Shown here: positions 886 to 6,800 of the stretch, in pieces
How the letters are laid out: each line of letters begins with the position of its first letter
How positions within the stretch are numbered: position 1 is the first letter of the stretch
Assembly: GCF_018350175.1 (NCBI RefSeq)
Contig: NC_058381.1
Span: 54,064,001 to 54,128,000, forward strand
Reading direction: 5' to 3'
DNA: 64,000 nt
Source of the DNA: Felis catus
Taxonomy: Eukaryota
Program-made: the position numbers and the translations under genes
The notes under the pieces: generated by a model
What the model was told of the DNA's origin: nothing
Seen by the model: only the letters and a program-made list of their open reading frames with translations
Database searches by the model: none

Positions 886-3800
886 CTGGAGGGCGTGAGA
901 GGTCGTGAGTGAGTGGCACAAGTGGGCTTCAGAGAGGAGGAGGAGGTGAGTCGGGGTGTTCTGGGGCCCCAGAATCCCGTATCTCCTCTAGCTGGACTCC
1001 TGGGGCTGGAAGGGCAGGTGGGGCTCACCTGCTTCCCCGACAAAGACTTCCTGGGGGGGGCTCGAGGGCCCCTCACCCACGGCATTGTACACACTCATCC
1101 GTATCTCATATCGCCGGTGTTTGTTCAGGTCTGCGGGGTGGGGGAGGGGAGAAACACGGAGAAGTCACCATCCCTGCGGGGGACAGCCTGGAGGCTGGAG
1201 GCTGTGAAGATGTACCTGTGATTCTAGTTCCTGCCTGAGGGTTCGGGAAGGAAAAGGCAAGGGGTGGGGTGGCCGGGGGACGCCGTGCCTCCCCCCCTGG
1301 GAGTCGGGACACAGGTCTATGGTTGGCTTCTCGGCCAACGGTGCACACACCAGATACTTTAGAGACTGAAAGAGACACTATTAATATTCATGCAGGGACA
1401 ACTGGTGTGAACCAAACTGTTCTCCCTGACACACTGGGCCACCCCCTTTCCTGCCTGTCTGTCCTGGGCACACTGGGTCACCCCTTCCCCCTCACGGCAG
1501 ATGCTTGAAGTTCCCAGCTGCCTAGTCCCCATCAAACAGCTCTTCACACAAGGGGCTCAGCCCTCAGGGAAGGGGCTTATCTATCGGATGTGAATTCTGG
1601 GCTAAGAAACACTGTGTTTTTGCTAAGTTTGGGGGTCCTGGGGGGAGATGCCTGGACGGAAGCTGGGAGACAGGGGCAGCTGTGGGAGAGTGGGCCCCGA
1701 CACCCAGGCTGGGATGTGCCACCCCTGCTGGGGGTGAGGCCACAAGTTTCTCGCACTGCTGTCCCTGGGCCCCCTGCTTCGGGTCGGTGGTGGTGGTGGG
1801 GGGAGTTCTGCCTCTTGCCTGGAATGTGGGTGTGGGGGGGTCACCCTAAGTTAACTGGCCATGAAGCCATTGGCTGATGAAGGAAGGGTAAGGACAACAT
1901 AGTCTCACGCTTTGCTTCACATGGAGCACGGGGCTCCCCTGCCCAAGCTCTGGGCCTTGGATGGGAGAACCGTGCACCTCAGAAGGAGAGCGAGAGGGGT
2001 TAGCTCGGTGGGTTGAACGTCCGACTTCGGCTCACCATTCGTTGAGTTTAAGCCTTGCGTCAGACTCTGTGCTGACGGCTCAGAGCCTGGAGCCTGCTTC
2101 GGATTCTCTGCACCCCCCCCCCCTCTCTGCCCCTTCCTCGCTCATGTGCTTCTGCGCGCTCTCTCTCTCTCTCTTAAAAATAAATAAACGCTAACAAAAT
2201 TTTTACTATACGTGCTGCTGAAGCGAGCACATTAAAAGTTTTTGAGAAGGAGAGTAAGGAACGTTCCCAGGTCCCCGGGGGGAAAGGGGGGGTTCTGCTC
2301 GGTCTGGAGGTGGGGGTCAGCCTGAAACACAGAGCTGTGCAGGGAAGTGCCGTCCACGGGCCGAGGCGGGTGGTAGTGACCCACCATCCAAGCAGCAGAC
2401 CGAGAGCTCCCCCCATGGACCTCCTGTCACCCCGCTGTCCCCCCACGGCACACAAGACCAGAGCTGTTCCCTCTGTCCTCCTGCACCCGATGGAGGACGC
2501 CTCCCTGGTAACCCTCTAGCTTTTGTGTGTTTCCGGAAAGTCACACGTGCTCGGGGGGCTCCTATTCTTCAAGGAGCCTGAGGCGGGCACACCATTCAGC
2601 CGGTGGTCAGGTGTCCTCCCCAGAGGCCCCGCTCCCCGTCCCTGTGGGAGGCGTGGGCCCCGTTCTGGAGCCGCCATGCAGGGAGACTTACTGTCCAGCT
2701 CGTACTGTGTGAGGCTGGGCCGGCTCAGGTTCCGCATGGAGTACATGGCTACGGGGTGGGAGGCGGAGGGGGCCAGAGGGAGACAGCAGACAGAGGAGGT
2801 TAGTACACACAGCCCGCTCCACAGAGAGCCCGATTAGAGGGGCGGGATGGGGAGGGGGCCAGGCAGCGCACGTGCACAGAGACCAGGGGTCTCTGGGTTC
2901 CTGACGGTGGGTTAGGGGCCCCAGACAGGTGTGAGAGAGGGTGTGCACGAGGCCAGGGGACACGGGACACCGCGAGCCCCTTGGAGCCCAGCACCCCTCG
3001 GGGCAGCTCTGGGGGACCCTGCGACCCAACTCGCTCCCTTGTCTAAGGCGGGACTGCAGAACCACCGTGAGAGAGCGGTGTTGTTAGTTTCCTCCTATGA
3101 ACCAGAAACCATTTTACGACCAGGAAATATGACTGTATCATCCACGGGCATATAAAAATCACAACCACAAGCACATGTCTGCAAAAACGTTAAGAAAACA
3201 GCGCCAGCCGTTGGATCAGCTACTTCCGAGTTTTTCTAATAATATTCCTTTGCTACACGTTCGATCATTTTGTTGTCTGCTAACACTCGCTAGAAGACAA
3301 GGCACAAAAGGTTTAAGAGAATAATGGGAGAACACCTCACATGCTCCATTCCTCACCCACCTGCCTGGGGACCCAAATCCCGCCCCCCCAACCCCCCACC
3401 CCCCAGACTCGTCTCTCTCCTGCCTGCTCCCCTGCCCCGCCGTGAGCCGGTCACAGAGCTGCCCGTGGCACATTATCTCCCATCCTTGCCCTCAATGCCA
3501 TCCCGAGCCGGCCGCCTCGGCCGCAGACTCCTGCCTTCCCTCTGTGATTACATTAGCCTTTAACCGGCACCCCTGCTTCTGGTCCTCCATGGCCAGCCAT
3601 CGCCCTCCTGCCACCAAAGTCACCTTCCTAACCCAAAGGGCAAGAGTTCCCAGGCTTGTGAGTCTCCCTGGGATTCACACCAGGCTCCTGGCCCTTTCCT
3701 TTCCCGCCGCCAGAGGCAGGCTGGATGCTGAGGACCCCAGGACAGAAGAGTGACCTCCCCGAGGAAACAGAGGGGGCCACACTGCTGCTTCTTGGGGTGA

Positions 3801-6800
3801 GCGCTGGTTCCCCTGGAATACGTGCTCCCAGGCTGTCTTGCCGACCATCTAAGACATTTATTGCCGAGTCTATTTCTTGAGCACCAGCTCTGCAAACTCG
3901 GAGAGGGCAGGGACCTCTGTCTTGTTCACTGATGGGTGCCCCCAGGGTCTGAGGGCATGCAGAAGGTGCTTAATAAATCCCCCGTGAGGAAAGGGACGAG
4001 GGTGGGGTGGGAGGAGAGGCACACACAGGAGAGGGCGGCAGGGTTTGGGTCACAGTTGAGTCCAGGAAGCTGCGAGCTTCAGGGCAGGGAGGGGAGTGTG
4101 CCCGCCCGTGTGTCCCCTGACCCCTGTGGATGCCACTCACAGGTAAGTTCCGCCCACTTGGCCCCTGGGTTGTTGATGCCCCGAAGTGTGAAGCCCCTCA
4201 GCCCCTCGTAGAGCAGCTCCCGGTACCGGATCCGGAAGCCCAGCAGGATGCCGTTGATCTTGTCCTCTGCTGGTGGCTGCAAGGAAAGGGGTGTGGAATG
4301 GGGGGGGTGGGGGCGAGGAACTCCACTCTGCTCCTCCCTCCCTCCCCATCCTGCCCCTTGTGACCACAGAGCAGAGACGGAGTCTCCACCAGGGAAAGGA
4401 TCACAAGGACACCGAGCATTTTTAATTTACAAAGCAATGAGGTGGTTTCATCTCTGCGATACTCCCTGTGACCCAGGCAGGGAAGGACTGGAGTCGCCAA
4501 GCCATTCCCATTCTCGGAGCAGGAAGGCGAGGCTCAGAGAGGGTAAGGAACTCGTCCAAGGTCACACAGCATCGTCGGGTTCTTTCACAGGCTGTTCCTT
4601 GCCTAGGGTCACCCTCACATAGCACCAGCCTGCCTAGCCGGGTGGCCCCTCCACGTGCCACCCAACCAGCGTTTCCTGGGAGTCGTCTCCCTGTTCTTGT
4701 ACGTGAATAAGCGTAAGAGCTCCCGCGTGCGCCCCTGCTCCTCCTTTTATCATTTTTCTCCTTTGCTTTCCGCTCCCATCCACAGCTGAGCTGGAGAACA
4801 GGCTCCAGGAGAAGGTGGAAGCTACTTTTTATGATACCTCTTTTTAAAAGCCTGCTGAAATGGTTCAGCTTTTTATTAGTTCCTTAATTGCCTCCCTGGT
4901 TGCTGCTGGCACCTCCCTGCCCCCTCCACCAGGAAGGCCCGGATCTCTGCCAGCCTTGTCCTGGCTTCCAGCTGCACAAGGTCATTTTTCACTTAAGGGA
5001 GCGTCCTCTTCCAGGGAGGCCTCGGGCTGGGGAGCGGTTGGGGCCCCTTCTGGTTTCTTCAAGGGGCTTCCCATGGCGGGGACTGCAGGTGGACAGAAGT
5101 TGGGGCCTGCCCCGTCGGATCCCCCAAAGCAGAGACGGGGGTTTGCTGCTTTGGGGCCTCTGTGGGTAAGCTGCCGAGTCTAGAGCCTGGACTCTGGAGC
5201 ATACGGGGGATCCTGCGGGCACATACGGCCAGCCTGGTCTCTAAGCTGTATCCTGTGGTCTTCCCCCGGCCATGGCAGGACAACAGTGCCCGCCAGAGAG
5301 CGGGAAACTGGGGGAGGAGTGGAGGAAGAGGGTTCTATGTACCTGGACAATGGGCTCCTGTTCACTGCGACAGGAGAGTGGTCCTGTCCGAGTTCAGGCT
5401 GGGCATGCACACCTGTGTTTGGCTTCTCGCTCGGGAACCCCTACACGGACAGTGACCGCATTTCACGGAGACTCTGGGGGCCCTGAAGCCCCATGCACTT
5501 TTCTATCCCAGGACTGGCAGACCTAAGGGCACTAAACCTGACCCTGCCACTGACTAGCTGTGTGACCGGGGGCCATTGGTGTCGCTTCCCTGAGAACTGG
5601 GTCCTCATCTGCAGAAGGGGATTGAAGGAGCATCCACCCGAGACGATTATCTGGAGAGGTGGGATGAGCGACACATCTGTGCACCTGTGTATGGTGTCCC
5701 GGCCCTGCTGGGGACTGTTGCCCTTCTGGCCCCTCCCTGCCTGCTGGGCCATACCTGCCATCGGATCAGCACGGAGGTGGTGGTGTGGGGTGTCACCGAG
5801 ACAATGGTGGGAGCCTCATCGGGGGCTGGGGAGAGAGACAGACAAGTGAGCTCTGGGGGCTGGAGGTTTAGGTCCCCCGGGAGGCCACAGGGACCAGATT
5901 CTTCTGCGCGTGTGGAGGGAGAGGGGCTGGAGCCCTGACCCCAGTCTGAACCCAAGAGGCCAGAGGCCCCTCCTCTTTGTCCCTGGAGCCACAGGCTCCT
6001 TACACGGCTGTCACTGAGGCTGTCACTGGGTTTCCGGGGTCGGCCATGAGCTTGGGGACATCCGAGAAGGAAAACGTTAGGATGCCTGTTGGCATGGGTG
6101 CCTGAGCCCGTGGCAAAGGTCCCTCTGGCTCAAACCTCCCTGGGACTCTGTCCAGGGAGCCAGACAAAGGGCCTCCCATCTTGGAGGCCCCTCCCCTCGG
6201 AAGGGAACACCAGTGCCCAGGAAGGGCCAGTGTGCCAAGGGAAAGAGATCCGAGTGGGGGACACTGACCGGCCTGCAGAGTGGTCAGCGGCTCCGACTCC
6301 TCGCTGAACTCGCTGTCCCCAATGTCATTGGTCGCCTTCACTCGGAACTTGTAGGATGTGAAGGGCTTGAGTCTATGGGGGCAATCAGGTTCAGTGAACA
6401 GAGGTATCCCCTAATGCCTCACCCCACCACCCCTGCATGGGGAAAGGGGGCCAGAGGGTGCTGATCCGTTACACAGACGGGAACGTCGAGGCTCCAAGAG
6501 AAGGTCTGCTACAGCAGACGAGCAGGGCCCAGGGGTTCCGATCCCAGCCTGGGTGTGGTCTTACCGGCAGCCCCGCTTCTAAGTCATAGGTCCCTGGGGG
6601 GCTCTGTCCTCACATCGCCTACCTCATAGGCATCAAGCCGCCATGAGAGCACTGATAACTCTCCCTCCCAGCAAACTCCTCCCGTGAGAAATGCCATCTC
6701 TTTCTAGCATTTAGTAAATTTAGGAAGGGTCAGGGGTCTCAAGAGTTAATCAGCGCTTCGTCTCAATAAGCCCCGTTCCTCTTCCAGGCAAACGTCTTCC

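What the first reader, a model, noticed from the sequence alone, without database searches (positions are those of the whole stretch)
2660..2840. 57-nt SDK2 exon 34 carries the signature of a regulated neuronal cassette exon
Seen in sequence: this is the shortest exon in the window, symmetric (phase 1-1) and frame-preserving. It has a C-rich, U-poor tract with a TAG acceptor, a perfect TACTAAC (2799-2805) about 50 nt upstream, and TGCATG 12 nt into the downstream intron (2675-2680). Established: downstream UGCAUG bound by RBFOX proteins promotes inclusion in neurons and muscle, and ACUAAC is both the U2 branch consensus and a QKI site, which can compete with SF1/U2. Inference: an RBFOX-on / QKI-off switch could yield neuron versus glia/non-neural Sidekick-2 isoforms.
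Basis: partly seen in the sequence, partly recalled or inferred. Interest (0 to 1): 0.7.

Follow-up and report, generated by a model that had tools for sequence, protein, structure and literature searches.

The report
Sidekick-2 optional exon with built-in spare
This short piece of the nerve-cell adhesion gene SDK2 is left out of some transcripts in fish, frogs, birds and mammals; the end of the preceding exon resembles it and likely stands in for it so that both protein versions would fold, but the proposed neuron-versus-glia switch remains untested.

Summary
A 57-nt, phase 1-1 SDK2 exon lies at 2748-2692 (- strand). It is the shortest of 32 exons in the window, has the U-poorest tract, and is the only one with an ACTAAY branch motif (A at -52) and a TGCATG in the first 100 intron bases. 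It is a real cassette: 51 skipped against 117 included SDK2 proteins from fish to mammals, with transcript contigs of both. The likely mouse orthologue is a catalogued cassette with PSI 0.72-0.95 in neurons. Regulation is only partly supported. A mouse Rbfox network does not call it a target; SDK2 is listed, by gene only, among splicing changes after QKI knockdown in human motor neurons; no glial or non-neural PSI was found. The new point is structural. The exon encodes the C'-E strands of FN3 domain 10, and the last 17 codons of exon 33 resemble it. Skipping restores the length of other FN3 domains and of invertebrate Sidekick and keeps a full profile match, while removing a conserved N-glycan sequon. 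AlphaFold did not confirm the skipped fold. Verdict: a database-known cassette with an apparently undescribed spare-hairpin design; moderate interest.

The parts
2692..2748 (-). SDK2 cassette exon (exon 34 by human numbering), 57 nt, phase 1-1; encodes the C'-E segment of FN3 domain 10 with an N-x-S sequon
   Evidence: strand E in the long-form model; sequon in 98 of 104 long forms
2749..2751 (-). TAG splice acceptor
2752..2798 (-). C-rich, U-poor pyrimidine tract without AG
   Evidence: U 0.10, C 0.75 in the last 20 nt; AG-free zone 66 nt
2799..2805 (-). TACTAAC, predicted branch site (A at -52) and QKI core motif
   Evidence: use as branch site or QKI site is inferred
2833..2837 (-). CTAAT, possible QKI half-site, 27 nt from the core (recalled QRE spacing is 1-20 nt)
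2911..2915 (-). second CTAAC at -167
2686..2691 (-). GTAAGT splice donor (2 of 32 donors have this hexamer)
2675..2680 (-). TGCATG, RBFOX motif at intron +12
   Evidence: binding untested
4141..4276 (-). upstream exon 33 (136 nt), strands of FN3-10 up to the C-C' region
4142..4192 (-). last 17 codons of exon 33: look-alike of the exon-34 peptide, the proposed spare C'-E hairpin
1029..1130 (-). downstream exon 35 (102 nt), EF loop and strands F-G of FN3-10

Best explanation
This 57-nt SDK2 exon is skipped in some transcripts from fish to mammals, and the look-alike end of exon 33 likely replaces its C'-E strands so that both forms of FN3 domain 10 would fold, with inclusion likely tuned by QKI competing at the perfect branch site. 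Shown: the exon, its motifs, both isoforms, partial inclusion in mouse neurons, the resemblance of the two segments and the full-length profile fit of the skipped form. Inferred: that the exon-33 tail arose by duplication in early vertebrates; that the skipped domain folds (about 0.6); that QKI acts on this exon (about 0.45); that RBFOX helps inclusion (about 0.3). The long form would carry a loop of about 19 residues and one more N-glycan site on a domain far from the Ig1-4 adhesion interface, so any effect is likely on clustering or membrane apposition rather than on homophilic specificity.
For: Both isoforms: of 245 proteins examined, 51 skip exactly this exon, 117 include it, 58 end or read into intron there, 19 lack the region. 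Same-species pairs in mallard, rock ptarmigan, chicken, turkey, ruddy duck, wall lizard and pig; a jaguarundi RefSeq X2 skip form matches the window's flanks. Of 15 proteins from Logan assembled contigs that span the junction, 12 skip and 3 include. Mouse row CA-237979-243937-245524-245581-247274 is a 57-nt cassette with 3 inclusion and 2 skipping transcripts; PSI 0.94 vs 0.72 in ESC-MGE vs ESC-CGE cells (coverage 26.5, FDR 0.003), 0.91/0.90 adult MGE/CGE, 0.86/0.90 glutamatergic/GABAergic. C-to-F strand spacing is 36-41 residues in the 8 other SDK2 domains where the pattern could measure it, 40 in the skip form and 59 in the long form; invertebrate Sidekicks lack the insert. The exon-33 tail scores 20.6 (mean BLOSUM62) against exon 34; 0 of 3000 column shuffles reach the tested value; against the tail, exon 34 scores 25.2 and the best of 11 other domains 9.9. 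On an FN3 profile built without vertebrate domain 10, six natural skip forms score 94-102 bits against 83-91 for six long forms; shuffling the tail reaches the natural score in 0 of 300 trials in each of five SDK2 orthologues and in the own-genome SDK2 and SDK1. SDK2 is among genes with changed splicing after QKI knockdown in human iPSC motor neurons (PMC11406248 Table S6). QKI-SF1 competition at ACUAA branch sites is established (PMC13004596).
Against: AlphaFold2 gave pLDDT under 50 for residues 243-267 of the skip form and no strand E there, while the long form had strand E from exon 34; both alignments were shallow (30 and 38 close orthologues). In the long model the tail's last four residues form a strand, so its conservation could serve the long form alone. 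The junction residue in skip forms is H or Y in 46 of 51, where the profile consensus has G. The matching segment of FN3-2 scores 23.1 against exon 34, above the tail's 20.6, so the resemblance may be generic FN3 pattern rather than duplication. With only exons 33-35 scored, own SDK2 skip is 60.6 bits against 61.4 long. Tail shuffles are weaker in fish SDK1 (21 and 3 of 300) and hagfish (6 of 300). Strong QKI repression of RAI14 needed two ACUAAC elements; here there is one plus distant half-sites. The QKI listing names no exon or direction, and mouse Sdk2 has a second cassette. Rbfox flag is 0. Some skip models may be gene-prediction omissions, and the query was a skip form, so the counts are not frequencies.
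Confidence: 0.5

Rival explanations
1. One reading: RBFOX turns the exon on in neurons and QKI turns it off in glia and non-neural cells, giving largely separate isoforms.
For: Both motifs sit in the textbook positions and on no other exon of 32. Neurons mostly include it (0.86-0.95). Full-length skip-form contigs from chicken-like transcript assemblies suggest samples where skipping dominates (tissue unknown). Upstream ACTAAC marks exons that rise during brain development (PMC8187152).
Against: Not an Rbfox target at FDR 0.01 and in no cortical developmental module. No SDK2 row in ASCOT's cell-type- and tissue-specific exon tables (6 files). The SDK1 counterpart lacks both full motifs at these places. 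TGCATG at +12 abuts the donor.
Confidence: 0.25
2. Tolerated leakage: a short exon with a poor tract is skipped at a modest, largely unregulated rate; the perfect branch site and donor merely compensate, and the skipped protein is unstable or neutral.
For: U-poorest tract of 32. Adult neuron classes sit at 0.86-0.95 with small differences. AlphaFold does not build strand E in the skip form. No regulator flag.
Against: Skipping recurs from teleosts to mammals; a 0.22 PSI difference between interneuron classes; the tail fits strand E in exact register in both SDK1 and SDK2.
Confidence: 0.22
3. Annotation artefact: the exon is constitutive and skip forms come from gene predictors missing a short exon.
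For: Short exons are often missed, and several models here read into the intron at this place.
Against: Skip junctions in proteins from assembled transcript contigs of 3-7 kb, mouse cDNA/EST support and measured PSI under 1.
Confidence: 0.03

Closest known systems
QKI-repressed, SF1-activated cassette exons with an ACUAA branch site (RAI14 exon 11; PMC13004596, abstract and passages seen)
   Same: Short cassette with ACUAAC in the branch zone upstream of the acceptor.
   Different: One ACUAAC at -52 instead of tandem elements at -34 and -43; no CLIP, branch mapping or exon-level knockdown result seen for SDK2.
RBFOX-activated neuronal cassette exons (downstream UGCAUG; network in PMC5989265, passages and Dataset S9 rows seen)
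   Same: UGCAUG in the proximal downstream intron; mostly included in neurons.
   Different: The mouse exon is not among the 732 predicted direct Rbfox targets and not in a developmental module.
Tandem-duplication-derived homologous exon swaps such as mutually exclusive Dscam1 Ig exons (recalled)
   Same: Two similar peptide segments, either of which can complete one domain of an IgSF adhesion protein.
   Different: Not mutually exclusive: one copy is the constitutive end of exon 33, so inclusion adds a second copy instead of swapping.
Fibronectin EDA/EDB and tenascin FN3 cassette exons (recalled)
   Same: Splicing changes the FN3 array of an extracellular protein in frame.
   Different: Those add or drop whole domains; here 19 residues inside one domain change.
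Known Sidekick variants (Sdk1 form lacking Ig domains; review PMC7479261, passages seen)
   Same: Splice variants of Sidekick ectodomains whose role the review calls unexplained.
   Different: The passages seen name no FN3-10 exon; this one lies outside the Ig1-4 interface (PMC5045292, passages seen).

Membership tests
Conserved cassette exon | Both inclusion and skipping products exist | tested here: met
   51 skip and 117 long proteins of 245; mouse PSI 0.72-0.95. Not shown by reads in this species (uninformative).
Conserved cassette exon | Frame-preserving, symmetric phase | tested here: met
   57 nt, phase 1-1; both joins are stop-free.
Conserved cassette exon | Skipping seen in distant species | tested here: met
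   Mammals, birds, a lizard, frogs and teleosts.
RBFOX-activated exon | UGCAUG in the proximal downstream intron | tested here: met
   +12.
RBFOX-activated exon | Called a direct target from CLIP, motif and depletion data | tested here: not met
   Rbfox flag 0 in Dataset S9 of PMC5989265; low read coverage could cause a false negative.
RBFOX-activated exon | Motif conserved in orthologous introns | not testable with these tools
   No vertebrate relatives or intron DNA; absent at this place in own-genome SDK1.
QKI/SF1 branch-competition exon | ACUAA in the branch zone | tested here: met
   TACTAAC, A at -52, inside the AG-free zone.
QKI/SF1 branch-competition exon | Dual ACUAAC or core plus close half-site | tested here: not met
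   Nearest (C)TAAY is 27 nt from the core.
QKI/SF1 branch-competition exon | Inclusion rises on QKI loss | tested here: inconclusive
   SDK2 named by gene only in PMC11406248 Table S6; absent from the searched files of PMC5693031 (11 of 13) and PMC13004596 (11 of 20).
Neuron-specific exon | High PSI in neurons, low in glia and non-neural cells | tested here: inconclusive
   High in neurons; no non-neuronal values reachable; not in ASCOT's specific-exon tables.
Microexon (3-27 nt in PMC8187152) | Length at most 27 nt | tested here: not met
   57 nt.
Mutually exclusive homologous exon pair | Two similar segments | tested here: met
   Tail against exon 34; duplication versus generic FN3 pattern is not resolved.
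Mutually exclusive homologous exon pair | Exactly one copy per transcript | tested here: not met
   All 117 long forms carry both segments.

The most novel reading that the evidence does not exclude
Vertebrate Sidekicks carry a spare-hairpin splice switch: an early duplication left two interchangeable C'-E segments in FN3-10, so one exon toggles between the ancestral compact domain and a domain with an extra loop and N-glycan. QKI and RBFOX set the ratio by cell type, giving Sidekick-2 a hidden isoform code that tunes clustering or membrane spacing at synapses.
Probability: 0.2. Interest if true: 0.7.

Novelty: new variant of a known kind. Interest (0 to 1): 0.4.

Why it matters
Vertebrate Sidekicks are held to have little splicing diversity (PMC6054835, passage), and the role of their 13 FN3 domains is poorly understood (PMC7479261, passage). 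A cassette kept from fish to mammals that leaves a complete domain either way gives a natural pair of reagents for testing what the FN3 stalk does. It would also show how splicing inside a folded domain can become safe through a local duplicate. If QKI controls it, it adds a synaptic adhesion target to the branch-site competition model.

Tried and rejected
Junction counts in this species: not obtained. Orthologous intron DNA: no relatives held; a short-protein search gave 1 irrelevant partial protein; the metagenome scan gave one locus at 44% identity that reads as an unrelated prokaryotic gene, rejected. No solved structure of FN3-10: the only Sidekick FN3 hit at E 1e-20 or better was 1WFO, another domain. 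Fold search with the skip model returned generic FN3 arrays. Literature: (search listings only) showed no paper on this exon; one search returned 0 papers; most subscription papers are not searched. Four papers recalled by id were not held, and one recalled DOI led to another paper with no mention of SDK. Supplements that may decide the tissue question could not be read: PMC8187152 Data 9, PMC9122611, the cut regulon table of PMC12358039, three files of PMC5989265. Earlier scan notes: nothing. Rejected: constitutive exon; microexon; my first idea that exon 34 is the newer copy, since 12 of 16 invertebrate segments score closer to exon 34 than to the tail.

Full report
Setting. The window holds 32 exons of SDK2 on the - strand, from residue 161 to 1660 of a 2172-residue seal orthologue. 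It lies at G000:C37:54064001-54128000. The exon-33 peptide is identical to carnivore SDK2.

Observation. The exon is at 2748-2692, 57 nt, phase 1-1, between introns of 1392 and 1561 nt. Among the 32 exons it is the shortest, has the lowest U and highest C content in the last 20 tract bases, is the only one with ACTAAY upstream, and the only one with TGCATG in the first 100 downstream bases. Background chances are about 0.002 and 0.013, before allowing for post-hoc choice.

Is it skipped? Yes. Of 245 proteins lack exactly this exon, 117 contain it, 58 stop or read into intron there and 19 lack the region. Skip forms occur in mammals (including a jaguarundi RefSeq isoform X2), birds, a lizard, frogs and teleosts, with same-species pairs in seven species. 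Twelve of 15 proteins from Logan contigs that span the junction are skip forms; an open frame of 2158 residues on a 7-kb contig must come from spliced RNA. These are not frequencies, because the query was a skip form. A mouse catalogue lists a 57-nt Sdk2 cassette with flanking introns of 1587 and 1693 nt (PMC5989265 Dataset S9); I take it as the orthologue from length and intron sizes, not from sequence. Reads from this species gave nothing.

Is it regulated as proposed? Partly. In PMC12358039 (passages and table rows seen) PSI is 0.94 in ESC-derived MGE-type and 0.72 in CGE-type interneurons (FDR 0.003, coverage 26.5), 0.91 and 0.90 in adult MGE and CGE cells, and 0.86 and 0.90 in glutamatergic and GABAergic neurons; the column order of the last table is inferred from the first. 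So neurons mostly include it and it can vary between neuron classes. Against RBFOX control, Dataset S9 flags it 0 for Rbfox, Nova, Mbnl and Ptbp and in no developmental module; low coverage may explain this. ASCOT's specific-exon tables have no SDK2 row. For QKI, Table S6 of PMC11406248 lists SDK2 among genes whose splicing changed on QKI knockdown in human iPSC motor neurons (388 exons); I saw one passage, with no exon or direction. The model case RAI14 needs two ACUAAC elements; here there is one, with CTAAT 27 nt away. No glial or non-neural PSI was reachable, and motif conservation could not be tested. The own-genome SDK1 counterpart (60 nt, phase 1-1, TAG, GTAAGT) has CTAAC at -34 and GCACG at +7 but neither full motif, and Dataset S9 has no Sdk1 row.

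What it does to the protein. The exon lies inside FN3 domain 10, where a deletion would normally be destructive. Instead the C-to-F strand spacing goes from 59 residues (long) to 40 (skip), against 36-41 in the 8 other domains where it could be measured, and invertebrate Sidekicks have no insert. The last 17 residues of exon 33 align without gaps to the last 17 of exon 34, both ending in E-L-x at the same phase. Their mean BLOSUM62 score over 16 orthologues is 20.6; 0 of 3000 column shuffles on a subset reached the subset's 21.3. Twelve of 16 invertebrate segments are closer to exon 34 than to the tail, and hagfish and fish SDK1 already have the insert, so exon 34 is likely the ancestral segment and the tail an early vertebrate addition. 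On a profile of 12 other SDK2 domains and 16 invertebrate domains, natural skip forms score 94-102 bits over the whole model and long forms 83-91, with the tail read as an insertion. Sliding a 19-residue deletion gives a plateau up to the exon-34 end and a fall beyond it; shuffling the tail never reached the natural score in five SDK2 orthologues (0 of 300 each) or in own SDK1 and SDK2, but did in fish SDK1 (21 and 3 of 300) and hagfish (6 of 300). Skipping also removes an N-x-S/T sequon found in 98 of 104 long forms.

Results against this reading. AlphaFold2 placed strand E in exon 34 in the long form (residues 278-282) but left residues 243-267 of the skip form under pLDDT 50 with no strand E. 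The alignments were shallow, so this neither confirms nor excludes the fold. The tail's end forms a short strand in the long model, which alone could explain its conservation. FN3-2 resembles exon 34 as much as the tail does (23.1), so duplication is not proven. The junction residue in skip forms is mostly H or Y (46 of 51), where the profile has G. A shuffle is a lenient null.

Mechanism. The most likely picture is a weak tract offset by a perfect but distal branch site and a strong donor, giving mostly-included splicing that QKI can lower by competing with SF1 (inferred, about 0.45) and RBFOX may raise (inferred, about 0.3). The output is two forms of FN3-10, compact or with an extra loop and glycan site (fold inferred, about 0.6). 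Homophilic binding rests on Ig1-4 (PMC5045292, passages), so effects would be on the stalk.

Known and new. The exon's alternative status is in databases. I found no paper on it in six searches (listings only). The spare-hairpin design works like a homologous exon swap but fails that family's test of mutual exclusion. Verdict: new variant of a known kind, interest 0.4.

Noticed in passing
L003:154-3849 (G000:C41, SDK1): The paralogue has the same three-exon layout with a 60-nt phase 1-1 middle exon; its skip form fits the FN3 profile better than the long form (76.0 vs 71.0 bits). No transcript evidence of skipping was seen.
   Followed up: partly
window 3956-3961 (-) and L003:368-383: Both paralogues carry TGCATG early in the intron after exon 33: one at +180 in SDK2, two at about +79 and +89 in SDK1.
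   Followed up: no
window 2546-2550 (-): GCACG at +142 of the downstream intron, recalled as a secondary RBFOX motif.
   Followed up: no
beyond the window's 3' end of SDK2: Mouse Sdk2 has a second, 165-nt cassette (CA-237979-268809-273864-274029-275088, PSI about 0.9 in adult neurons); it could be the QKI-sensitive event instead.
   Followed up: no
bird SDK2 proteins, e.g. P0148, P0149, P0200, P0210: Lengths of 2158/2180 and 2177/2199 with the same position of FN3-10 imply another optional 22-residue segment further downstream.
   Followed up: no
window about 1990-2190: A SINE of carnivore type (identity recalled) in the intron downstream of the exon.
   Followed up: no
echinoderm Sidekick clusters P0254 and P0258: RefSeq isoforms X1-X4 differ by 2-11 residues, suggesting very short optional exons.
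   Followed up: no
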